Shown here in pieces: positions 6,903 through 64,000 of a stretch of DNA of 64,000 nucleotides (positions within the stretch are counted from its first letter, which is position 1; each line of letters begins with the position of its first letter). The translations under genes and the position numbers were made by a program. The notes beneath the pieces were generated by a model, which saw only the letters and a program-made list of their open reading frames with translations, was not told the origin of the DNA and did not search any database. The stretch is taken from NCBI GenBank assembly GCA_951406725.2, contig OX597827.1, positions 78,926,001 to 78,990,000 on the forward strand, in the 5' to 3' direction. The DNA comes from Octopus vulgaris (taxonomy: Eukaryota).

Positions 6903-8450
6903 AGCTAAAACCAAAGTCGTAATAAGTAGGAAGGCAGGAAAACCACAAATCCCTTTGGGTAGATAGCCCTGCTCAATCTGTAGAAAAGGCATAGGTAGAA
7001 ACTCTCTAAGCTGTACCCAGTGTAAGCTATGGACACATAAGAGGTGCAGCAATATCAAAAGAAGGTTAACTGGGAAGATAGTTTTTGTATGTGGCAGATG
7101 CTCGGGAGCAATAAACACTGAAAATATGCAGAGAACAACTTCCACCACATTCCAGGGAGAAAAACTAGAAGTATTTGATAGCTTCTGTTACCTAGGTGAC
7201 CAAGTCAGTAGCAGGGGTGTGCCGATATAATGTAGGATAAATCTTATAATAATGATAATAATCTATGGATGAAATTTGTGTGCTGAAAGTGTAGCTTCTA
7301 GAATAAGAATAGCCTGGGCAAAGTTCAGAGAGCTCCTACCTCTGCTGGTGACAAAGGGCCTCTCACTCAGAGTAAAGGGTAGACTGCGTGGTGCATGTGT
7401 GTGAAACATGGGCCATGACTGCTGAGGCTATGTGTAAGCTCGCAAGGAATGAAGCCGGTATGCTCCGATGGATGTGTAATGTCAGTGTGCATACTCGACA
7501 GAGTGTAGGTACCTTGAGAGAAATGTTGGACCTAAGAAGCATCAGATGTGGTGTGCAAGAGAGACGACTGCGCTGACATGGTCATGTGGCGAGAATGAAT
7601 GAGGATAGCTGTGTGAAAAAGTGCCACACCCTAGCAGTTGAGGGAACCTGTGGAAGAGGTAGACCCAGGAAGACCTGGGATGAAGTGGTGAAGTACAACC
7701 TTCGAACTTTAGGCTTCACCAAGGAAATGACTAGTGACCGAGACTTTTGGAAATATGCTGTGCGTGAGAAGACTCGTCAAGCCAAGTGAGACCATAACCT
7801 GTGGCCTAAGCCAGGAATGTAACCAGCCCGCTTATGCATACCTTTTCCTTCTTTGGACACTAAAACTCTGCTTGCAAAGACCTGTTGAGGCAAGTGGAAT
7901 CAAAATCAAATTCGATGCCTGGTGTCCAGGCTAGCGGGGTGCAAAGAGCACCATACAAGTGTGATCATTGACAGAGTGGCTAACCGGCTTCCATGCCAGT
8001 GGCACATAAAAGGCACCATTTGAGTGTGATCGTTTCCAGCTTTGCCTTACTGGCACTCGAGCCCCGTGCTAGTAGGGTGTTAACAGCACCATCCAAGCGT
8101 GATCATTGCCAGAGCGGCTAACTGGCTTCCGTGCCAGTGGCACATAAAATGCACCATTCGAGCGCAATCATTACCAGCATCGCCTTATTGGCACCTGTGC
8201 CAGTGACTTGTGTAAAAGATTCGAGCGAGGTCGTTGCCAGTACCGCCTGACTGGCCCCGTGCTGGTGGCACGTAGAAGCACCCACTACACTCTTGGAGTG
8301 GTTGGCGTTAGGAAGGGCATTCAGCTGTAGAAACTCTGCCAGACCAAGATTGAAGCCTGGTGCAGCCATCTGGTTTGCCAGCCCTCAGTCAAATCGTCCA
8401 ACCCATGCTAGCATGGAAAGTGGACGTTAAACAATGATGATGATGATGAT
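6903..8450 (+). mobile_element. RTE-clade LINE 3' portion (degenerate ORF end plus 3' UTR with (GAT)n tail)
   Basis: Broken frames give KTKV..., PCSICRKG...CTQCKLWTHKRCS, FCYLGD, AWAKFRELLPLL, GRGRPRKTWDEVV. These are followed by GTGCCNGTGGCAC repeats and an ACGTTAAACAATGATGATG tail. Confidence 0.85.
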
Positions 8451-8573: not shown

Positions 8574-9052
8574 GAGGTAAGGTATCAAGTTGTTGGATCA
8601 GGTAATGAAGGTCACGGAGAGGGTCATAGCCCAACTAATTAGGGAGAGAGTCAGTTTAGATGAGATGCAGGTTGGTTTTGTGCCAGGGAAAAGCACCACT
8701 GATGCTATATTCCTGGTAAGACAGCTGCAGGAGAAATACCTAGCTAAAGATAAACCTCTGTACCTGGCTTTTGTTGACTTGGAGAAAGCCTTTGACAGGG
8801 TCGCCCGATCTCTTATCTGGTGGTCAATGAGGAAACTAGGGATAGATGAATGGTTAGTGAGAGCTGTGCAAGTCATGTACAGGGACGCAGTCATTGAGGT
8901 GTGGGTTAGCAGAGTACAGTGAAGAATTCTGGGTAGAGGTAGGGGTCCACCAAGGCTCAGTCTTCAGCCCCCTCCTATTTATCATAGTCCTCTAGGCAAT
9001 AACAGAGGAATTCAAGACAGGATGCCCCTGGGAGCTCCTCTATGCTGACAAC
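8574..9052 (+). mobile_element. RTE-clade LINE reverse-transcriptase fragment
   Basis: GFVPGKSTTDAIF...LAFVDLEKAFDRV, GVHQGSV.SPLLF and LLYAD motifs, frameshifted. Confidence 0.9.
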
Positions 9053-22404: not shown

Positions 22405-22455
22405 TTTGTCAAAATATTTTCGTTGCTTCGAGACTGCAACCTGTTCACTGACAAA
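22405..22455 (-). ncRNA. Minimal hammerhead-ribozyme-like motif, G3-C8 variant
   Basis: Minus strand TTTGTCA-GTGAACA-G-GTTGC(AGTCTCGAA)GCAAC-GAAA-ATAT-TT-TGACAAA: perfect 7-bp stem I, 5-bp stem II, palindromic stem III. Confidence 0.6.
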
Positions 22456-25539: not shown

Positions 25540-25760
25540 TCGTGGCTTTTTAAACCAGACAATGTATTGGAAAGACAGCCACATAGATTGCAAAACTGAT
25601 TTGGAAAACGAACCTCCACCAACCAACTACTCTACCTGTATTTACCTGTGCACACCTTTCAATGCCGTGTATGCCACAAAGTCTGTAAATCTAATGAAGG
25701 CCTCAAAAGACATTTTAAGACCCACAAAGATCAGAACTTCACTGCAGCTCTTGCTGGTCC
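25540..25760 (+). mobile_element. LINE (RTE-type) C-terminal C2H2 finger remnant
   Basis: FQCRVCHKVCKSNEGLKRHFKTH with no TGEKP linker or splice context. The C..C.K.C.S..GL..H pattern is typical of RTE ORF ends. Confidence 0.55.
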
Positions 25761-26533
25761 AAAGCAGATATGCAATCTATGTATGTGTATGTGTGTGTAT
25801 ACATACACACACACATACATGCATATACATTGTCATTTGTTTAATGTCCCCTTCCCTCTGCTCGCATGAGTTGGATTGAATTTTGTTGAGGCAGACTTTC
25901 TGCAGCCCGATGCCTTTCCTGTCACCAACACTAGTCTGTTTCTAGGTAAGGAGGCAGTAACACACACACACACACATATCTGTCTGTCTATTTGTCTGTC
26001 TTTCTCTCACCTTCTCTCTCCCTTTCCCTCACTCTGTTTCTCTCTCTCTCTCTCTTCACACATATATATGATGGGCTTCCTTCAGTTTCTATCTACCAGA
26101 TCAGCTGACAAGGCTGTAGTAGAAGACACTTGCCCAAGGTGCCACACAGTGGGACTGAACCTGGAACCTTGTTAGAAAGTAAACTTCTCATCACAAAGCC
26201 ACACCTGTATTGTTTGTGTGTGTGTGTGTGTGTGTGTGTCTGTATGAATATATATATGTATATATACACAAACATATATACATGCATATGTATGTGTGAT
26301 GAAAATAAGCAACAGGATATCAAGTAGTAATGCAGTACGACCTTTTCAAGTGGCTCCATTTAATTGAACAATGCAGTCATTACATCAATTTAAATGCAGT
26401 GCCATCTTCAGCTGCACAAATAAATAAATGGAATTTTAACAAGTAGGACACATTAATATAATTTTTCTTGAATATTTTAACAGAGCAAGTAGATGGAAGA
26501 AATTCATGTTGTCACTATTGTAACTAAGAAATA

Positions 26534-28190: not shown

Positions 28191-28674
28191 TATAAATATT
28201 AAAGGAAATAGAGAAATACAATTGACATAATAAAAATTTATTAACATTATTATATAATATAATTATAATATAAAAGGATATAATATAATATAAATAATTA
28301 AAACAAATATCAATCCTACAATTTGTTTTGATTCATATCCACTCGTGAATTTATAAAAATTCACTTTTAAGCATTTGAGTCTCATCAGGGTTAATATTTG
28401 TCTTAACATTTCATTCAAAGACTGTTGAATCATTTTATGATTTAGCAGTCCTTGCATGAAATTTTTGTCTTTTTTTAGACAAATATTAACCCTGACGAGA
28501 CTCAAATGCTTAAAAGTGAATTTTTATAAATTCACGAGTGGATATGAATTGAAACAAATTGTAGGATACATATTTGTTATACTATATCTTTTTATAGTAT
28601 AATCATATTATATTATAATGATAATAAATATATAATATGTCAATTGTATTTCTCTATTTCCTTTAATATTTATA
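28191..28674. mobile_element. Long inverted repeat, probable Penelope-like inverted pLTR pair carrying hammerhead motifs
   Basis: Arms 28191-28403 and 28477-28674 are reverse complements. The right arm contains CTGACGAG...GAAACAAATTGTA (28492-28563). Confidence 0.65.
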
Positions 28675-30427: not shown

Positions 30428-30685
30428 CTTTGGAGTAAAGATTGTTTGCCAACGTAACATGGCAGTCTTGGTTTAGGACGAATGTTGCTGTAATTTAGCC
30501 CCAAGAGACATCAACTCCAGCTGGCTATATGACACGATCTGTGTCCTTATATTTTCAAAAATATAAGGACACACATTGTGTTGTATAGCCAGCTGGAGTT
30601 GATGTCTTCTGGGGCTAAATTACAGCAACATTCGTCCTAAACCAGGACTGCCATGTTATGTTGGCAAACAATCTTTACTCCAAAG
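30428..30685. repeat. ~258-bp near-perfect palindrome (foldback/MITE-like)
   Basis: CTTTGGAGTAAAGATTGTTTGCCAAC... mirrors ...GTTGGCAAACAATCTTTACTCCAAAG, with its centre near 30557. Confidence 0.9.
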
Positions 30686-31575: not shown

Positions 31576-33529
31576 ACATATGTATAGATGCATGATTGAC
31601 AAGTGGCCCTTTATGTCTTACTGAGGAGGTCATAATAAGAGTGAAATATGTCAAGAGTCATTTTTTCTTGATAAAAGGTTTAAAACAATATTAGTCATTG
31701 ACTAACATTGTTCCTCATCACATTGTTATTTCTAATTAACACATTTAATGCTCCTTTCATTAAATGTGTTGACAGAAACTAAACTATACTATATAGAGTG
31801 TCCTTTGCTTTTTAGCTGTCAGAATGTAATTTGAGGAAGATTTGACTGCTTTTTCTAGCAGACTGAATGATTGTGTAATTGTTCCTTTGTTGGTTCATGA
31901 AAACATGTCGACTGATGTTGATTTTCAGCCTAATTGATGGCTTAGCTCAAACTTTGGCCTGAGACACTGATTACAGACTGTCGCTAAAAAAATCATTTGA
32001 CTAATATTACACATGTGGTGATGAGAAAAACAAACAAACAAATCATTACTATATTGATCAACTCTGGTCACAAAAGGGAAGGGAAGCAACTCAGGAATTT
32101 TTAATTAAAATGTGATAAAAAATAGAATGTGGACATTGTAGTGTAGAGTGAGTTTGATGCTGGCAGTAAGGTGAGACAACTCTGACATATTTCAACCTTA
32201 TTAGTCCTCATCAGTTATACCAACACTAACATGATTAACTGTGGCTAAGAATGAATGGCTTCTCATTTAATCAGTTAATGCATGCAGTTTTTAGCATGTG
32301 TGTGTGTGTGTATATAAATATGTATGTGGTTGTGTGTGTGAAAAATGAAGGGAGAGAGATGGTGACACACATCCACTCTATGCCAGTTTGGTAAAAACCA
32401 GACATAAGGTTATCAAGATGATAAATGCATGTGTGTGTGTGTGTCCATATGTATATGTGTATGTACCACCTTCAGTCTACATCAGCAACAAGGATGACAT
32501 TTGCTGAACAAATTCACTTGAATGTCAACAACAACAACAGCTGTAGCTATCAGAAAGCAAAGTAAGTCCTGGTGTCGACTGCTGGAATGAAAAAGTTTAT
32601 GAAAGGAAATCAAGTGACAAATTAGTTATTAATTTGCTGAACGTGGACAATAGGTTGCTGCTATTTAACCCGAGGTTGACCCCGATTGAGCAGACCTTTT
32701 ATCAAAGTTGTTCCAGCCATGACCGTCCCACCTTCTCTCCAAGTATCCCAGACTAGATTCTTTAATATGCCCTTTAGCATTTAATCAGTCCATTACTGGT
32801 GCCGTATATTCTCCCCGTTTTATGCTTAAACAAACCAGATCCAGCCTCTCACACCCATCCTACAATGTCATTCTAAACATTTACAAATCTCACCATTGAA
32901 ATCTTGAAGCTACAAAATAATCCATGATTAATTCAAAACAATGTGAAGAAATAAATACATTTGATGGAGGAAGCTGGCTGCCAAGGGATTAATACAGCCA
33001 ATCGTTTTTAAAGACACTAGGGTTTGATAAACTTTTTGTCTGTGTTATCTGAGTATCGTGGGTCTATAGCCAGAGTATACCTAAAACCTCTATAGAGGTT
33101 TTAGGGTTATATCCCTAAATTGGTTGCTTTCCACTTGTTATTTTATGCCAGACCCTGTCCTGGTATTTATTCTCTGAAGGGTTTGCTAGCCCGTGACCCT
33201 ATATAGGATTTGCTGGGTTTTTCTAGTGACCCTCCCCACCAAGTTAATTGGGGAGGATGGAGACTGGCTTGGTCGCCAGGCAACAGGTTATACTGGGGTA
33301 CATGCTGCACCCTCTTATTCCTCTCCCCATCGTTGCAGTGGATTGGCAGAATCGGTAGAGCATCAGACATGCCTTGCAGTATTTACTTGTGACTCAGAAG
33401 TCATCTTTGCCTTTCATCCCTCCAGGGTCAATAAAAGAAAGTACCAGTCATATACTGGGATCAGTGTAATCAGTTAGCCTCTCCTCTCAAAACTGCTAGC
33501 TTCTTTCTAATTTAGAAACCATTATTATT

Positions 33530-42479: not shown

Positions 42480-43560
42480 AATCTAGGCGGAAACGCCTTT
42501 TGAAAAAATGGACTAATTTTACAGGAGAAACTTTACACCGGTTTCCGACTGACGTCGGGATTTCAATGATGGCTGTTCGTTTCTGTAAATATTCTTCACA
42601 TCCTTGTTTGTTTTTGTTATCTTTGACGACCGATCGTTTTCTTAATTTCTGAATAGAATGACATTTTTACACAGCATATTGCCTTCAACACTTTGATCAA
42701 ACTGATCTCATTTTTGGTATGTCTATTTATTATTTATATTATTAAATGATTTATTATTAATTATTATAAGACGAGGAAAGCGGCGTAATTACAATTAGGA
42801 GCCTTAATTAGGAGAATTTTAAAATCTAATTTGGTTTTCCTGAATTCCCGAAACGGAAAAGTGAATCCTTCAATGTAGGTAAAACGTGTACCCTATACGT
42901 ATATACAGCCCTGTTACACACACATATATATATATAAATAAATAAATAAAATACACACACACACGATATATAATAGGTAAGAATTGTATTTTTGTAAATT
43001 GTATTTTCTCCAAATGACGTTTTATGTGTTGTCGATAAAAAAAGAGAAGCAGGGATAGAAAAAAAAAGTTTGATTTTAGCACAACCGGAATCTCTTCTTT
43101 TCAGTGTTTCAGTAATTCCAAGTTAGATTTTTTATATTCCCCGTTTTTGTCGGTTCCAGTTTTTTAAAATTTTCTGGGTTTTTGTTATTTAAACATTGTT
43201 TCCGACAGCAATTGTTAAACTCTGAGGAAATATATAAAATCTACTTGCTCTTAATAAACCATATTGATATTAAACAATTCTCTCCAACTTCTGACGAAAA
43301 TCTTAAAATATATTCAAGCAAAATCGAAAGCCAACAGAAGAGATCGAACTCGTTCCGCCAAATAAGTGGACGAGGATGTTTCTTTATTCTTCTCTTTGTA
43401 TTTATGTTTATCAAAGAATTGGAAAAGAAAAGAAAACAAACGAGCAGGATATATGCCGGAGTATTAATAAAATTCTAAACCGGTTAAAAGTCGGACAAAT
43501 TAGAATTGTTGCGAGAAAGTAAAAGTACAACTTTTTTCAGAGAAGAACCATTCTTCGGGG
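42480..43560. promoter_or_regulatory. CpG-enriched, repeat-poor putative promoter / first-exon region
   Basis: Local CpG excess, TGACGTC CRE-like site near 42550, CCGG/CGGAA ETS-like cores and a candidate donor TTG|GTATGT at 42716/42717. It lies upstream of the FEM-1-like exon, which has an acceptor just before its ATG. Confidence 0.5.
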
Positions 43561-47874: not shown

Positions 47875-48829
47875 TTAATTAACAGTGGAGGTGAATGTTC
47901 CTGAAGTAGAGGAGCCAGAGTAAGAAAGGGTTGGGGAGTGGTTACCCCTTTTGCTAATAAAACGTTTCTCTCCCAAAGTGAGATGCAGATTGTATAATGC
48001 TTGTGTATGAACTGCAATGTTTTGGCCAAAAGTAACTGGGATGGCTCTAAGTATGTTTCTGCATCATTTTGCTATCTTTTGACACATCTTCTACGTGTCA
48101 TAGATGTTGTGGTTTAACTCCCAGTGTTGAGTGTGATGGCTGGTTCTTTTTGTTTTCTTGTGTTGCTGGCAAAAAAGGAGACTGGATTTGCCGGGAATTT
48201 TTCGGCTAAAATAGTTTTCAAGTTGTGTCTACAAAATGGTGGAGGACGTATGAGTTTTGTGGAAGTTGAAGGTGAATGGCTAAGATCTCTTTATGCTCTG
48301 TCAGGGTAATTGCTGGTTCAGGAAGTAAAAACACTATTAACAGTATGTTTGGCAAGCTGACGGGTAATCAGCTGGCTATTTTGTTTCCCTTTTTGTTTTT
48401 TAGAAGTGGATAATTAAGATACAAGCTAAGTTAATAAGGTCATTATACTTAAAAATCCTTTAGACTACAAATTTCATTGTAAAAGAAACTTACTGACTAA
48501 CTGATAATTAATTGGTCATTAAGAGTCTACATTCTAAATAGATCAGGATTATAGATGTTGATAGATTCATTTAATTACTGATGCCATCTGCTTGGGAACT
48601 CTGGCATAATCATACATTTAACTGTGGGGTTGTTTTTGATCAATATTTGCATAATTAGCATTTATTGAAGGTTAAGACTGTGATGTTGATTAGAAGAACC
48701 TAATTAGAAGACAATTAGCCACATGATAACATAAAGGAATTGTTATTTCCATTTGGTAATATAAAAGAACTATTATTTCTAACATCTCTCACTAATATTG
48801 TTATTATTTTTATTATTTTTTCAGGAAAG

Positions 48830-50461
48830 ATGTCACAACAACTTACAGGGGAGCAGATTATTTCCATATCAAACAAAGTGATGCGTTATGTGAGGAAATG
48901 TAACCTGGTTGGTGTGAAGTCCAAACTGGACCCTCTTAAAATGCCACATCGCAAACGTATTGCCAGCCGAAAGATCCAAGGATTCACTGCACTGTTTCTG
49001 GCCGTTTCCTACAACAACTTGGAACTTGTTCAGTATTTGTTACAGGAATGCAATGTTCCTGTCGATCAACCTGTGATATATAATGATGATGCTCAAGTGA
49101 CCCCTCTTTTAGTGGCTGCATCAGAACGCTGCAAGAATATGTTACAGATCCTTCTTGATTATGGAGCTGATATCAATGTCAAAGACCATTTGGGTAGCAC
49201 TGCTCTGAAAATGTCTGTTAAGGGTGGCAACGTGGACATTGTTAAGTTTCTTATTGAAAGAGGTTCTGATGTTAATTTTGCTGACCATAAAGGAGTGACT
49301 CCATTGATGGAATCGGTCTTTAACACGGAGTTAGTAGATCTCCTCTCTTCAAATGGTGCTAATTTATATGCAACTGATGCAAAGGGTGACACAGTCCTGC
49401 ATTTTGCAGCCTGTAAAGGTAGTTTAGAGGTGTTTAAGTTTCTCCTCCAGAAAGGCTTCAGTCCTTACACATGCAATGGCCTCGGTGAGAACTGTTTCCG
49501 GCTTGCTGCCACACACTGGCAATGGAGAATACTCATCTATTTACTGGTAACTTTTCCTTACCCACAACATTCTCCACAACAGTACTTTGACAGCACCACA
49601 ACACAGATATTTATTAAAGCTCTTGATGAAGCTGAACACAACATTGATGTCTTTGAATTTCCTGCACTAATGGTGACAGAAAAAGTATTAGGGGTTTGCT
49701 GTACGTCACTTGAGGCCTTAGGTTATGCAGCATGGCTGCAGTGCGACCTCGGCAATGTTTCACTAGCATGGGACATATATTGCCATTTACTTCGAGCCTG
49801 TCAAAGAATGAGGTGTGTAACGGGCCCTGATATTGTTACACTTGAGTTGGAGGTGTTTTGGAAAATATACAGTAAAGATCAACATTATTCGATGCCATTC
49901 AGGGAGGTCATAAATCTTGTGCGGCAGATTGCTAGTGATATCGTCATCAACTGGGAATCCCTCCAAAACAGCAACTGTGAAGAAAGATCTTTGAAAAGTT
50001 CTTACAAGGTGAATGCATGGGAAACGTTGTTACTGTTTGTGGTGAACTTGCTCAAAATTCTCATTCATTACCAACACAAATGGGATTCGGTAAGCTTTCA
50101 GAGGTTCTCCTGTTCTGTTCTTGATCGATACACCAAGGTTTTGTCTCAGACAGAACAGTCACATGCTGAACAGGAAGGCATCACGGATGGAAGTAAACCT
50201 GCAATCTCTTTAAGGCTTCATGGAAAATGGCAGCCGACAGACATTATTCTCCAAGCGTGTCATGAAACACAAAACCAGTTTCTGGGAAAATTTCTCAAAG
50301 AATCACCGTACATTGTCTTTGATGCTGCTAAACTTGTTCCTGTAAAAGAACCTCTTTCCCTGCAGTGTCTCACTGCCAGAGTTTTAAACCAAGCAAACAT
50401 TGAGTACCACAAATACTTACCTGGACGCTTGACCGACTTTGTCCTCCATCACCTCTCATGA
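48830..50461 (+). CDS. FEM-1-like ankyrin-repeat Cullin-RING ligase substrate receptor (543 aa, single coding exon)
   Basis: Acceptor TTTTTTCAG at 48824, then ATG at 48830. N-terminal ankyrin repeats (TALFLAV, TPLLVAA, TALKMS, TPLMES, TVLHFAA). C-terminal PLSLQCLTARVL...Y...LPGRLTDFVLHH resembles the FEM-1 BC/VHL-box terminus. Confidence 0.85.
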   Translation: MSQQLTGEQIISISNKVMRYVRKCNLVGVKSKLDPLKMPHRKRIASRKIQGFTALFLAVSYNNLELVQYLLQECNVPVDQPVIYNDDAQVTPLLVAASERCKNMLQILLDYGADINVKDHLGSTALKMSVKGGNVDIVKFLIERGSDVNFADHKGVTPLMESVFNTELVDLLSSNGANLYATDAKGDTVLHFAACKGSLEVFKFLLQKGFSPYTCNGLGENCFRLAATHWQWRILIYLLVTFPYPQHSPQQYFDSTTTQIFIKALDEAEHNIDVFEFPALMVTEKVLGVCCTSLEALGYAAWLQCDLGNVSLAWDIYCHLLRACQRMRCVTGPDIVTLELEVFWKIYSKDQHYSMPFREVINLVRQIASDIVINWESLQNSNCEERSLKSSYKVNAWETLLLFVVNLLKILIHYQHKWDSVSFQRFSCSVLDRYTKVLSQTEQSHAEQEGITDGSKPAISLRLHGKWQPTDIILQACHETQNQFLGKFLKESPYIVFDAAKLVPVKEPLSLQCLTARVLNQANIEYHKYLPGRLTDFVLHHLS

Positions 50462-53914: not shown

Positions 53915-55106
53915 TTTGTGGTTACGAAGTTTGCTTTGCATCTGTGTGGTGTTTGGTTCAACCCCTCTGCACGGCACCTCATACAATTATCTTCCTACCA
54001 TAGAACTGGATTGGGCAAAGTTTTGTGAATGAAATTAATTGATGGAAATAATGTGGCATCCCATTGGAGAGACCATTCCTGTTATTCGGTGATAAATTTA
54101 ATCTGTTGCCTGGTTTAACCCCATTCACTGGCCCTAGGGTACCTTTAGTGTAGCCCACTATATTACAGGAATTCAGGGCAGGTCTATAATTTGAGGATAA
54201 ATATCCTCCCATCTGTCCCAGAGGTCAAGTCTTTTGCCTGCACATAATAAAATAAGTTTCATTATTTTTGTACATTTTTTTTTTGATTGTGACATCAGAA
54301 TCCCAGAAAGTTGGTCAAATTGTGATTACTGAGAGATTGGTTTCACTGTCTCATCTCACCCCTTACAAGTATAGTTGGCCTCCTCCGAGGAAGTTTTTTC
54401 TGGCTGCTTACTATAAAAGTGCCAGTGCTGTCCAACACAGGTTTTAACCCCTTCTGGATATGGTCAAACTGGACGAGTTGTAGGAAGTAATGTGATGATT
54501 GCTTTTACTCCACTCTGTTGTATTGTTTGGACACAGAGATTATAGCAACGAGTAGCTACTGGCTCCTGGAGCAAACTCATACTGGATTTGGTGGGAGAAG
54601 TTTGGTCAGTTGCAGTTCTGAACACTCTCTTTCATATTCTTCCCCGCTTCGCAGTGCCAGTGCTGTGTGGCAAAAAACAGGAAGTTTGGCAGAGGTAATC
54701 AGCTTACACATCCCATAAGAAACCCTTTTATGGTGCAGCTGAGCCCCTGCCCAGCTTTAGATTATTCTCTTGAATCTAAGCATAATTATGGGAATTTGAC
54801 TGTCATCAAAACCGTGTTTTCATTGCCCACCTAACAACAGTCGTTAGTGTTTGTTCTTGTTTAGTGTCCTATTTGTGGTTACGAAGTTTGCTTTGCATCT
54901 GTGTGGTGTTTGGTTCAATCCCTCTGCACGGCACCTCATACAAGTATCTTCCTACCATAGAACTGGATTGGGCAAAGTTTTGTGAATGAAATTAATTGAT
55001 GGAAATCATGTGGCATCCCATTGGAGAGACCATTCCTGTTATTCGGTGATAAATTTAATCTGTTGCCTGGTTTAACCCCATTCACTGGCCCTAGGGTACC
55101 TTTAGT
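53915..55106 (+). repeat. 235-bp near-identical direct repeats (53915-54149 and 54872-55106)
   Basis: Directly visible. Only a few substitutions separate the copies. Confidence 0.9.
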
Positions 55107-55860: not shown

Positions 55861-57808
55861 TGGAGGTTGTAGAAACCACTCCTGAAGCCTGCCGACTCCT
55901 CTGGCAATTTGTCTTCTCCATTATTTTCACTGGTCTCCAATTGACACATTTATTGGCTGATTGGGCTTCTTGGTCGTGGTTATCTCCCTTGTTTTACTTG
56001 CCTAATCCTTATTCTTTTTTTTTCTCTCTCCATTGTTCTGTTATTTTCGCATTGTTGACACAGACTGTGCTTTTTGGCCAAGGTGTCAGGTTATATTACT
56101 TGAAAACTTAGCCTTCTGTTTCCACTTTTGGCTTCAAATCCTTAACGATGTCAAATGGTTTCCTATTTTTCTGGTTTGTAATTAAAGTTTGTTATCAGCA
56201 ACGTCTGTGATGAGAAGTCTTGTCTTTCTTGTTTGAGCCAAGAGAAAATCTCATCATGTAGGGGTTTGTGTATATAGATGGATGTTTTTTTGGTGTGTGT
56301 GTGTCTGTGCATATGTATGTGTGTATGCAAATGTCATATATTAATCCTCTTGACAGTGTTGGCCCCACCCTGCAATTTGGAAACACCTGTATTTTCTTAC
56401 CGGCATATATAAAGCAAAAACGTCCAAAATAACTAATTCTTTAAAAACTTACAATGAATGACAGATTGGCAAAAAAAGAAATTTACATTAAAATGCCAAT
56501 AATTTGTGGTACAAATATTCGAATTAACAACAGTTAAGATGTTGGAAAATATTGTCTGTCGTTTTGAGAGAAACTCCTCTTCATATAAACTCTGTTCCAC
56601 TTGATGTGGTATTTTTTATAAGCCATTTCTAAGTTGTGTGTGAGAATATTGTTATTGTTGGGACAACAGAAATGTGTTGTGCCCTGCTGGAGCACAATTA
56701 TTAATTCAGAAATGAATTTGATCTTCTTGACTGGAGACATACAGACTGCCATGTTTGATATCTCAGTTAAATGTTTTACAATTGTACCCACTACAACCTT
56801 GTACCCAGCAGTGAAAGGGTACGGATGTAACTGTGCGGTTAAGAAGTTCACTTTCTGATTGCTTGGTTTTAGGTTCAATCCAATCATGGGATGTCTTAGT
56901 TGTGTTCTACCATAACTTTGGGTTGGCCAGAACCTTGTGAAGGAAATTTGGTGAATAGACACTGGTGGGTTGCCCTTAATGGGACCATTCCTATCCTTAG
57001 ATGGTAGAGTTCACATGTTGCTTAGTTTAACACTACCATCTGGTCCTTGGGTATCTTCAGGGACAGCCACTCTTTTTCATACAAACAAACCAAATCTAAG
57101 GTCTGTGGATACTTTCCTCCCTTCGCTCATTAGTTTCAGAGGTTCTCAAAAAGGTCGGCAAACATCCATTGTCCTCTGGTTAAACCATTAAAAATATCCT
57201 TTTCAAAATTGACAAACAGGACACTTATATCCACAGTACCTTCTTTGATCAATTTGTTTTTCATGTCACTGTACTGTGTGAAAGGTCACTGTACTGACCC
57301 AACATCTGATTGATTCATTGACCACATCTTTCTATATAAACAGCATGAGATCCAGTTGTGGTTTCCACTTATAAAATAAAGACAAGATTTATGTCTCACT
57401 TGGCTAAAATTGTAGCCACTACATTTCCAATATTTCACTGGTATCTAGAAGTGGGACACTGAATAGAATTGCTTATGAGCTTATGTTTTGCCAACCATAC
57501 AGCAACGGCTTCCTTCTTAATGTCAGCTGTCTGATTACACAATACTTTTGTATTGAATTCCTTCTTTATTGATAAAGAGTGTTTGAGTTTACTGATCTAC
57601 GGTATCTGTTTTATGGAAATACCTGGCTGACTCTCATGAACTGTCTTTGGAGCATAATACCCCTTCTGCTGTTGTTATAATACTTCTCTCACTATTAAAG
57701 ACATAACAATGTTGTTTATGATCCAACTTTCTTACAGTATATATATTTATATATATATATGGAAAAAAAGTCAAGATAGAAAATGCTAAAATAATTTTAT
57801 AAAAAACA

Positions 57809-57850
57809 TTTCAGTACCGGTTTCAGTCATTGAGACTTTTTCAACTGTAA
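57809..57850 (-). ncRNA. Minimal hammerhead-ribozyme-like motif, U3-A8 variant
   Basis: Minus strand TTACAG-TTGAAAA-AGTC(TCAAT)GACT-GAAA-CCGG-TA-CTGAAA, with palindromic ACCGGT stem III and a GUA site. Confidence 0.6.
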
Positions 57851-58562
57851 CAATTAAACAGTTAAATTTAGAAAAATTAAAAAAGAAAAGTTTTTTTAAA
57901 AGAATATTTGTATAGTGTTCAAATGTAAGTGGCATTTTCCTTATTTCTGTCTGTCTCTCTTGTTTACTCTTGGTGGGTTTGAGGTTGTTTTATTAATTTT
58001 GAATAGATGCCAATGTTGGTGAGACTGAATCTTTTTCTCTTTATCTTCATCTTTACATCAACACAACCAGTGTTCTGTCTACAACATCAATAAAAGATTT
58101 AGCAAATGCAAACTAAAGTTTTCATAAACTTTCCCTTCTGTTCACTGCAGAACTCACAAAGAAGACAATTATTTTTCTCTTCCAATGAAAATTTGTTATA
58201 AATTTTGTTTTCCATAAAAAAATTGTTTCTCAGAATTCCTTTGTCTTTTCCTTTGTTTTACATTTCATTTCTTGTTATTGTTTCATCATTTTCTCTGCAG
58301 TCAGCCAAGAACCCTCGATGGCTTCTGTTGCATGGGGTAGATAAGAGGGCCAGAGTAAAGAGGAATAGAAGAAGTCAAGGTAAGCTTTAGGAATGGGCAC
58401 GTGCAGAGGAAGAATAGCATTAGCTTTGGGACTTTATGATTTCCATCTACATTATGGATTAGGAAGAAGTGATGCAGGTTGATCACAGGAAAGTGATGAC
58501 AAAAAACTATCAGTAGTGATACATTTTATGAGAGGAGACCTGTTTAATACATGCATGGAGGA

Positions 58563-62039: not shown

Positions 62040-62670
62040 ACATTAGTCTTGCTCTGAGCTACATGGTAGAAGTTCTCTGTTCCTGTCAGCTTTTGCTCAA
62101 AGACACATGTCTTCTCTGTAGCTCTCCCCACAATCTCCCACGTGCGACTTACATGTCTATTCACCTCGACACAAGATATATGGTTCATAAACGAAGATAT
62201 TTTATCTCACACATTCTCAAAATCACTGTTCTCATTACACACCTGCATACATACTATAATACAAATATTATGTCACTTCTTTCAGTGCAAAATCTCTAAA
62301 TCATCAGTTCCAAAAGACATTGATTCTTGGACCCATGTGTTTCTACGAAGTGATGCTGTGAAAACCCCTCTCACACCTCCATATACAGGACCCTATTGTG
62401 TCCTGTCGCACACAAACTATATACCATTGACATTAATGCTAAAAGAGAAACTGTCTTGATAGACAGGCTTAAGCAGGCATACACAGACTGATACAATACT
62501 ACTTCATACATCTCCCACATTCACAGTTCAATATAAAACAGATGCTCCTCCACTGCAACCACCCCCAACACTACCACACACACCGACCCCTCCTCCATAC
62601 GTCACTGAAACTTGTAGTGGTCGTCAGGTACACTGGCCCACCAAGCTGTCTAAAACTATATACATCTGAA
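62040..62670 (+). mobile_element. Degenerate Ty3/gypsy integrase C-terminus
   Basis: THVFLRSDAVKTPLTPPYTGPYCVL (GPY/F motif), then in shifted frames YTIDIN...IDRLK.AY and T.SGRQVHWP. Confidence 0.8.
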
Positions 62671-62695
62671 CTATAATGATCTATTTGTGAACGTT

Positions 62696-63321
62696 AATAC
62701 GTTTCGTCTTCATCGTTTCCGATTCGTTTTTTTTTAAGAACTTTCATTTCGTATTTTATTTCCTAGTTGGGTGGTTGCGATGGTAAAACGTCTGGTTATT
62801 AAAACACAAGAGAACTTCTTAAACAAAGTAAATACGTTTCGTCTTCATCGTTTCCGATTCGTCTTTTATATATTTTATAATTTTGTATTTTATTTCCTAG
62901 TTGGGTGGTTGCGATGGTAAAACGTCTGGTTATTAAAACACAAGAGAACTTCTTAAACAAAGTAAATACGTTTCGTCTTCATCGTTTCCGATTCGTCTTT
63001 TATATATTTTATAATTTTGTATTTCATTTCCTTGTTCGCAGCAATGAGCGATGGTAAAACGTCTGGTTATTAAAACACAAGAGAACTTCTTAAACAAAGT
63101 AAATACGTTTCGTCTTCATCGTTTCCGATTCGTCTTTTATATATTTTATAATTTTGTATTTTATTTCCTAGTTGGGTGGTTGCGATGGTAAAACGTCTGG
63201 TTATTAAAACACAAGAGAACTTCTTAAACAAAGTAAATACGTTTCGTCTTCATCGTTTCCGATTCGTCTTTTATATATTTTATAATTTTGTATTTCATTT
63301 CCTTGTTCGCAGCAATGAGCG
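62696..63321 (+). repeat. Tandem array of ~134-137-bp units (4.6 copies, variants A,A,B,A,B)
   Basis: AATACGTTTCGTCTTCATCG recurs at 62696, 62831, 62965, 63102 and 63236. Confidence 0.95.
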
Positions 63322-64000
63322 AGAGAAAGAGAAATCGTGAATACCAGAATAAACTTAATAAAGTAAGAAAAATATATTTGGAAGATGAAAAGAAGCAAGA
63401 AGATTTGGAAGAAGAAGCAGAGAGACATTTGCAAGAAAGATCTGAAGACTTTTTTTAATGCTGTTACCTATCTACCTGTTGATTATTATGCGAAAAGCTT
63501 TCCCGGAAAGGGAAAACGAAGCATCGCAGAAACTATTCAAACCGTCGTGGACTTTTTCGATGAAGAAAAAGCTAACGAGAAAGCCAGAAAAAATGTTGAA
63601 TCTGCTATGGACAAGTATATTGAAATGTATTTTCCTGGTGAGTGTAAAGGTTACAACGAACACCTGAACCGCCTTATTGAGAAAGCAGAAAGAATCGAAG
63701 AAATGAACTTCCCTATTTTAAGAGATATTTTGAAGCATATAAGCGATGATGATTCGTGGAAATTAGTTGCCAAACATCTAGGATCGGATGCAGAGGAAAT
63801 TGATATTAAAGCTCAAGAAACCCCACTGGATAAAAAATGCTATGTTTTTATTAACCTGGTGCCCCATAAAATGCACCTAAAGGATCTGTGCCCTAAGCTG
63901 TTATTTGCTCTCAGTGAATATTGTGAGTGTGAAGTTAATACCGAGAAAGTGGAGGCAGTTTTGGACAAGGCCATCGCTGACCAACAAGCTGAATATATTG
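63315..64000 (+). CDS. Unannotated ORF (partial, runs off window) with death-domain-like segment and one frameshift in a T7 run
   Basis: ATG at 63315 gives 47 aa to TAA at 63456-63458. Removing one T from 63450-63456 joins it to a frame open to 64000 (...ILKHISDDDSWKLVAKHLGSDAEEIDIKAQETPLDKKCYVFINL...LLFALSEY...). Confidence 0.65.

What the first reader, a model, noticed from the sequence alone, without database searches (positions are those of the whole stretch)
57809..57850. Second covariant hammerhead-like motif: U3-A8
Seen (minus strand): UUACAG-UUGAAAA-AGUC(UCAAU)GACU-GAAA-CCGG-UA-CUGAAA. Stem III is the palindrome ACCGGU and the site is GUA. Its stems are unrelated to those of the 22.4-kb motif, but the topology is the same and it uses a third Watson-Crick option at 3-8. 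With the C3-G8 examples at 28.5 and 32.2 kb, three alternative 3-8 pairs occur within 64 kb. Inference: a diverse, high-copy repertoire of variant minimal hammerheads spread by several Penelope-like families, probably under-annotated in this lineage.
Basis: partly seen in the sequence, partly recalled or inferred. Interest (0 to 1): 0.72.

Follow-up and report, generated by a model that had tools for sequence, protein, structure and literature searches.

The report
Orphan Penelope-type hammerhead relic in octopus
This 42-base stretch of octopus DNA has the layout of a small self-cutting "hammerhead" RNA with a core variant already described in other animals, and it is most likely a leftover, probably inactive, piece of a Penelope-like jumping gene.

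Summary
The minus strand at 57852-57807 holds a minimal type-I hammerhead layout: U3-A8 core, 4-bp helix II, palindromic helix III, and a helix I pairing at 7 of 8 positions. Chance gives such a match in about 0.3% of shuffled windows with a strict descriptor and 1-4% with a loose one.

It is not new. U3-A8 minimal hammerheads of Penelope-like elements (PLEs) are published (about 1,300 hits in Schistosoma; PMC4209133), and a shrimp PLE motif has the same helix II/III layout. The window is Octopus (the neighbouring gene clusters with Octopus proteins).

The copy is an orphan: no second copy in the window, no PLE reverse transcriptase or endonuclease among 300 ORFs, and no dimer partner. U3 is predicted to pair with A17, which would favour an inactive fold. 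"Covariant" and "high-copy" were not shown, since no genome or read data could be examined.

The parts
57845..57852 (-). Helix I, 5' arm
   Evidence: Pairs with 57807-57814 at 7 of 8 positions: one A.A mismatch, two G.U
57838..57844 (-). First core box N3-A9, with U3 (57844) and A8 (57839) in place of C3-G8
   Evidence: same core letters as a published S. mansoni PLE motif (PMC4209133 Fig. S3 text)
57825..57837 (-). Helix II: 4 bp with a 5-nt loop closed by A10.1-U11.1; alternatively a bulged A, a 3-bp stem closed by G-C and an extra U
   Evidence: Pair probabilities 0.95-0.97 in the isolated motif; 0.56-0.85 in two longer contexts and 0.01 in a third; the published descriptor allows an extra N10 and N11
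57821..57824 (-). Second core box G12-A13-A14-A15.1
57816..57821 (-). Palindromic helix III (A15.1 to U16.1), predicted to pair with a second copy
   Evidence: Self-duplex -8.3 kcal/mol; position
57815..57817 (-). Predicted cleavage triplet GUA; a cut would fall after A17 (57815)
   Evidence: By hammerhead numbering (established knowledge); cleavage not tested; U3:A17 pair probability 0.72 in the isolated motif
57807..57814 (-). Helix I, 3' arm
57739..57806 (-). AT-rich tail of about 45 nt ending in a (TA)n tract; possible insertion end
   Evidence: (TA)5+ tract 85 nt from N3; about 6% of window positions have one that close; inference
22405..22455 (-).
   Evidence: 7-bp helix I, bulge, G10.1-C11.1, palindromic helix III; flanked by a 48-bp inverted repeat; antisense in an intron of a C2H2 zinc-finger gene
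28290..28580 (.). Inverted pair of decayed C3-G8 hammerhead-like copies with a long helix II (context)
   Evidence: About 320-bp inverted repeat; helix I pairs 12 of 12 with one bulge in one copy and 10 of 12 in the other

Best explanation
The stretch has the layout of a minimal type-I hammerhead ribozyme with a U3-A8 core and is most likely an orphaned, probably inactive relic of the terminal repeat (pLTR) of a Penelope-like retroelement. Shown: the layout, its excess over chance, the absence of a PLE ORF among the ORFs tested and of a second copy in the window. Inferred from the published class: in the parent element two copies in a tandem transcript would pair through the 6-nt palindrome, form a dimeric hammerhead in which U3-A8 replaces C3-G8, and cut after A17 to free the element's RNA. 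Truncated reinsertion next to a (TA)n tract would have left this lone end. Predicted for the present copy: little or no cleavage, because it has no partner, helix I carries a mismatch and is outcompeted in longer RNA, U3 can pair with A17, and it may lie antisense to local transcription.
For: Chance rate 0.003 per window strict, 0.01-0.04 loose. Features the strict descriptor did not ask for also fit: helix I extends to 7 of 8, U-rich 5' and AU-rich 3' flanks as in the published consensus line, and a (TA)n tract 85 nt downstream (6% background). Published precedents, counted by eye in the 56-row alignment of PMC4209133: U3-A8 in 2 of 56, A10.1-U11.1 in 3 of 56, no bulge in 2 of 56, A17 in 6 of 56. 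The Marsupenaeus PLE row has the same 4-bp A-U-closed helix II, no bulge, 4-nt palindrome and A17. Most such motifs occur as single elements thought to be truncated PLEs. Other hammerhead relics lie in the same window. The lineage is Octopus, where PLEs expanded. A helix-swapped dimer in hammerhead topology scores -17.3 kcal/mol.
Against: No PLE RT or GIY-YIG among 300 of 411 ORFs of 55 aa or more scanned in Pfam; the one RT hit, at 8.6 kb, is far away and was not assigned to a PLE. No related copy in the window and no family in viral or metagenome contigs. It departs from the published consensus at several points at once, and none of the 3 U3 rows of the alignment has A17. Fold z-score -0.89, and helix I probability is 0.0 in all three longer contexts tested. 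Look-alikes arise by chance in large data: 9 of 89 distinct metagenome matches had a helix II of 4 or more pairs, 3 of them with A8. Three of the five other relics have no (TA)n tract within 400 nt (N3 positions there are off by 1-2 bases).
Confidence: 0.65

Rival explanations
1. A chance match in AT-rich non-coding DNA, with no ribozyme ancestry.
For: It sits at the descriptor's minimum for contiguous helices (3 and 4 bp). The loose null gives 0.01-0.04 per window, and a scan of many windows will collect such hits. No PLE ORF and no sister copy. Comparable chance matches were seen in metagenomes. PMC3088659 warns that allowing core variants raises false positives.
Against: Strict null 0.003 per window by two methods. 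The same window holds other well-formed relics, so the prior for a real one is high. The palindrome contains a CpG in a kilobase with only 5. Helix I extension and the (TA)n tract fit without being asked for.
Confidence: 0.2
2. A real hammerhead relic, but from a non-autonomous element (retrozyme-like repeat or SINE-like passenger) rather than a PLE pLTR.
For: No PLE coding sequence nearby. Type-I hammerheads occur in short non-coding tandem repeats of animals, molluscs included (PMC7229834 passages).
Against: No tandem unit of 200-400 bp around the motif. Retrozyme hammerheads are described as canonical type I in tandem, whereas minimal variants are tied to PLEs and Terminons.
Confidence: 0.1
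3. A co-opted, still active ribozyme that cuts a host transcript, as a homodimer or with a distant partner.
For: The core is fully intact while helix I has decayed only distally. The 1-kb stretch is held at 0.74-0.86 of 98 sampled words by 20 of 24 listed runs from 9 studies under three coded organism labels, so the locus is shared and unlikely to be an assembly artefact.
Against: Sharing among close relatives is expected without selection, and conservation of the motif against its flanks was not measured. Published minimal motifs showed no cleavage as monomers and low cleavage as dimers. Predicted U3:A17 trap and alternative folds. A T-over-A excess on the plus strand in 13 of 13 kilobase bins from 48 to 61 kb weakly suggests that the motif is antisense to local transcription (inference).
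Confidence: 0.05

Closest known systems
Minimal type-I hammerheads of Penelope-like element pLTRs, U3-A8 variant (S. mansoni Cercyon; Cervera and de la Pena 2014, PMC4209133)
   Same: U3-A8 core (same core letters as one S. mansoni row), short helix I, palindromic helix III implying dimer action, AU-rich flanks, occurrence as a single dispersed motif
   Different: 4-nt palindromic insert in helix III rather than none; short helix II; A17, which none of the 3 U3 rows has; no linked PLE ORF found
PLE hammerheads with a small palindromic helix III (Marsupenaeus japonicus, Drosophila willistoni, Aedes aegypti rows of the same paper)
   Same: The shrimp row has a 4-bp helix II closed by A-U, no bulge, a 4-nt palindrome and A17, as here
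   Different: Those rows keep C3-G8; I did not see U3-A8 combined with this layout among the 56 rows
Natural U3-A8 core variants (Perreault et al. 2011, PMC3088659)
   Same: Compensatory 3:8 change, reported in several natural examples and active in vitro
   Different: Many of that paper's new examples are predicted to carry tertiary or pseudoknot contacts; none is evident here
Non-LTR retrozymes of animals (PMC7229834)
   Same: Type-I hammerhead in low-GC non-coding animal DNA
   Different: No tandem 200-400-bp unit, no canonical 6-bp helix I with loop contacts

Membership tests
Hammerhead ribozyme (core) | Core N3-U-G-A-N-N8-A ... GAAA ... U-H with a Watson-Crick 3:8 pair | tested here: met
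   all invariant positions present, U3-A8, A17
Hammerhead ribozyme (core) | Three helices closed next to the core (1.1-2.1, 10.1-11.1, 15.1-16.1) | tested here: met
   All three closing pairs are Watson-Crick; helix III is stable only as a dimer
Hammerhead ribozyme (core) | Site-specific self-cleavage after N17 | not testable with these tools
   Needs an in vitro assay
Hammerhead ribozyme (Rfam models) | Score against Rfam hammerhead covariance models | tested here: not met
   No hit at gathering threshold in the window or at E up to 10 locally; the well-formed 22.4 kb motif is missed too, so the models do not cover this class
PLE minimal hammerhead | Palindromic 15.2-16.2 and loop III | tested here: met
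   6-nt perfect palindrome, self-duplex -8.3 kcal/mol
PLE minimal hammerhead | Extra nucleotide between 9 and 10.1, and a G10.1-C11.1 pair | tested here: inconclusive
PLE minimal hammerhead | Belongs to a multi-copy genomic family with covariation | not testable with these tools
   No genome held; no read data obtained; no sister copy in 64 kb
Penelope-like element | RT plus GIY-YIG ORF flanked by pLTRs | tested here: not met
   No such domain near the motif in 300 of 411 ORFs scanned; the 67-aa frame across the motif has no homologue. Expected for a truncated relic, so membership remains inferred
Penelope-like element | Tandem or inverted arrangement, insertion at microsatellites | tested here: inconclusive
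   (TA)n tract 85 nt downstream; only a weak 23-nt, 78% AT-rich inverted repeat flanks the motif
Non-LTR retrozyme | Hammerhead inside a 200-400-bp tandem repeat | tested here: not met

The most novel reading that the evidence does not exclude
Octopus genomes carry several Penelope-like families whose minimal hammerheads use three of the four Watson-Crick options at 3:8 (C-G, U-A and a natural G-C that I did not find in print), giving a natural mutagenesis series in which positions 3, 8 and 17 can be tested for joint constraint.
Probability: 0.3. Interest if true: 0.45.

Novelty: new member of a known kind. Interest (0 to 1): 0.2.

Why it matters
On its own, little: it is one more probable relic of a published ribozyme class. 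It would matter modestly if it marks an unannotated octopus PLE family, because no cephalopod row appears in the 56-row published alignment and standard C3-G8 descriptors and Rfam miss these motifs. With the G3-C8 motif at 22.4 kb, it would let one test with natural sequences whether the 3:8 pair is freely exchangeable and whether N17 avoids pairing with N3.

Tried and rejected
Whole genome: none held, so the genome-wide descriptor search could not be run.

Read or contig laying on the locus gave no data, so copy number, exon structure, strand and RNA ends are open. Sequencing-run search: no RNA holder listed; not used for or against expression.

Rfam: nothing. Pfam on 300 of 411 ORFs (the 310 that passed low-complexity filtering, longest 300): no PLE domain. 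Protein searches with the 67-aa frame across the motif and with a 41-aa frame ending in the 22.4 kb motif, stop read as X: no homologue; both are weak tests.

Pattern scans: viral contigs 0 and 2 matches. Metagenomes 120 loci of about 210 estimated. Among 89 distinct matches (116 parsed from 122 loci, viral ones included) N8 was A 30, G 28, C 21, T 10, with no enrichment among the 9 with a 4-bp helix II: chance background, no family.

The 42.5 kb site with the same palindrome was rejected as a partner: U9, G17, poor helix I, CpG-rich setting. A splice acceptor at the helix I 5' arm, as in D. virilis Penelope, ranks only 350 of 3,921 by a recalled frequency table; inconclusive. A minus-strand last exon upstream of the motif was considered; no support beyond a short open frame.

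Earlier-findings look-ups by sequence, by place and with two word sets returned nothing. Lunse et al. 2017 is not held.

Full report
Observation. In hammerhead numbering: U3 at 57844, A8 at 57839, a 4-bp helix II with a 5-nt loop (57837-57825), the GAAA box (57824-57821), the palindrome ACCGGU (57821-57816) and A17 at 57815. Helix I has three contiguous pairs next to the core, one A.A mismatch and four more pairs, two of them G.U (7 of 8).

Chance. A descriptor with N3 and N8 free, helix I of at least 3 pairs, helix II of at least 4 and an optional bulge found 2 hits in the window: this one and 22448(-). In 3,368 windows shuffled in 500-base blocks it found 487 hits with any helix III (135 with a Watson-Crick 3:8 pair) and 33 with a palindromic one (9 with the pair). 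An order-5 Markov null gave 27 and 6 in 1,858 windows. A mismatch-tolerant score listed 4 hits at 5 or more (1.06 expected per window; hits in one short interval were not listed). This motif scored 10, reached by 110 hits in 2,621 shuffles, 32 with the pair. The motif is therefore unlikely but not impossible by chance, 0.3% to 4% per window, and the descriptors were written after seeing it. Folding energy is not significant (z -0.89). Rfam finds nothing here or at 22.4 kb.

Lineage and setting. The ankyrin-repeat ORF at 48830-50458(+) is in one 90% cluster with proteins named for Octopus bimaculoides and O. sinensis, and its next relative is from Argonauta, so the window is octopus DNA. The kilobase around the motif is held by 20 of 24 listed runs from 9 studies under three coded organism labels, at 0.74-0.86 of 98 words. 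One of these may be the window's own source, and none was laid, so this shows that the locus is real but not whether the motif is conserved. The motif has no related copy in the window, no tandem unit and no PLE protein domain among 300 of 411 ORFs scanned. It is followed after about 45 AT-rich bases by a (TA)n tract, 85 bases from N3; about 6% of positions have one so close. The 22.4 kb motif has one at 126 bases; the 28 kb and 32 kb relics do not (231 to over 3,000; N3 positions in that call are off by 1-2 bases). Insertion bias toward microsatellites is reported for N-terminal-endonuclease PLEs, which lack hammerheads (10.1101/2021.04.23.441226, passages); extending it to this family is my inference. 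A plus-strand T-over-A excess in 13 of 13 kilobase bins from 48 to 61 kb weakly suggests plus-strand transcription, which would make the motif antisense.

22448(-) is well formed: G3-C8, 7-bp helix I, a bulge, G10.1-C11.1, palindromic helix III, U17. It lies antisense in an intron of a C2H2 zinc-finger gene, between 48-bp inverted repeats. 28492(+) and 28388(-) are the two arms of an inverted repeat of about 320 bp. Both are C3-G8 with a long helix II whose base pairs at 5 of 6 positions and a helix I of 10-12 of 12 pairs with one bulge; one has lost G12. 32214(-) and 31621(+) keep the core boxes but not the helix I pair beside the core. So three 3:8 pairs do occur, in sequences unrelated to each other. 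That is diversity among families, not covariation within one. The unbiased test is small: 2 of 2 strict hits against 28% background (p about 0.08) and 2 of 4 loose hits.

Outside the window. Pattern scans for U3 cores with this palindrome gave 0 and 2 viral matches and 120 metagenome loci of about 210. Among 89 distinct matches N8 was A in 30, and in 3 of the 9 with a helix II of 4 or more pairs: background, and a reminder that look-alikes arise by chance.

How it would work. Shown by computation: the palindrome forms a -8.3 kcal/mol self-duplex, and two copies can form a helix-swapped dimer in hammerhead topology (-17.3 kcal/mol). The best dimer (-19.5) and the monomer (probability 0.72) instead close U3 on A17, and helix I has probability 0.0 in three longer contexts. 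From the literature: PLE minimal hammerheads are inactive as monomers and weakly active as dimers, and are proposed to cut the element's precursor RNA (PMC4209133). An alternative 3:17 pair is proposed to trap part of the molecules in an inactive state (C3-G17; PMC3884650, passages); carrying that over to U3:A17 is my inference. The likely history is a pLTR ribozyme that processed tandem PLE transcripts, reinserted as a truncated end, and now sits alone and probably silent.

Comparison with what is known. PMC4209133 (main text parts 1-2 of 4; supplement PDF text in full; figures seen only as extracted letters) reports U3-A8 in S. mansoni PLEs with about 1,300 hits, mostly single motifs. In its 56-row alignment, counted by eye: U3-A8 in 2, U3-G8 in 1, G3 in 0, A10.1-U11.1 in 3, no bulge in 2, A17 in 6 (all with C3), and no cephalopod. 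The shrimp row shares this motif's helix II/III layout, and one S. mansoni row shares its core letters. The extracted letters of Fig. S2 suggest a small U3-A8 family with a purine at 17, but that reading is uncertain. PMC3088659 (passages) reported natural U3-A8 earlier. A review (PMC6765202, passages) describes PLE hammerheads with palindromic short helix III acting as dimers and cites Lunse et al. 2017, which I could not read and which may cover octopus or other core variants. PMC7229834 (passages) describes retrozymes. PMC13282606 (passages) lists 31 recently active Penelope-like families in O. vulgaris and a PLE expansion, and has 0 occurrences of 'hammerhead' or 'ribozyme'. PMC544870 (one passage) was not used.

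Not found in print, within a library that lacks most subscription papers: 'hammerhead ribozyme' with 'octopus' gave 5 papers, 4 listed, none about octopus hammerheads by title or abstract start. 'hammerhead' with 'G3-C8' gave 1 paper, on an engineered variant. 'U3-A8' gave only PMC4209133, and 'C3U' with 'G8A' none. Supplements other than that of PMC4209133 were not read.

Verdict. A real-looking new member of a published class, most likely a dead PLE relic (0.65); chance 0.2, another mobile element 0.1, co-opted 0.05. Interest 0.2. The more rewarding follow-up is the G3-C8 motif at 22.4 kb and a genome-wide count in octopus assemblies.

Noticed in passing
window 22405-22455 (-): Well-formed minimal hammerhead with a G3-C8 core and U17; G3 is absent from the 56 published PLE rows and my one search found only an engineered G3-C8. 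The core's UGA is also the stop of an upstream frame, which had no protein homologue.
   Followed up: partly
window 28280-28600: Inverted repeat of about 320 bp whose arms each carry a C3-G8 hammerhead-like relic with a long helix II containing an inner hairpin and a 10-12-bp helix I.
   Followed up: partly
window 31620-31660 (+) and 32179-32215 (-): Inverted pair of related, decayed C3-G8 relics about 550 bp apart; helix I is not closed.
   Followed up: partly
window 42530-42570 (-): Second site with the same GAAA-plus-palindrome and a U3/A8-like box, but U9, G17 and poor helix I; in a CpG-rich stretch with CRE-like and ETS-like words (recalled motifs), so perhaps a promoter.
   Followed up: partly
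window 62643-64000 (+): Five to six tandem units of 134-137 bp followed by an open 211-aa frame with no Pfam match that runs off the window; looks like a foreign or mobile segment.
   Followed up: no
window 48719-50461 (+): Single-ORF ankyrin-repeat gene (543-aa protein) whose C-terminal half matched only 2 proteins at E 1e-10 or better, both octopod.
   Followed up: partly
window 53915-54140 and 54875-55100: Direct duplication of about 225 bp, 960 bp apart, seen by eye, with a weak third piece at 57016-57060.
   Followed up: no
window 58302-58385 (+): Possible short plus-strand exon: pyrimidine-rich acceptor by eye and a strong donor at 58380; no known protein assigned.
   Followed up: partly
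window 6967-7227 (+), 8581-8919 (+), 25600-25866 (+): PHD-finger exon, LINE-like reverse transcriptase fragment and a further C2H2 finger exon.
   Followed up: no
window 30428-30685: Near-perfect 128-bp hairpin (94% complementary arms, 2-nt spacer), MITE-like.
   Followed up: no
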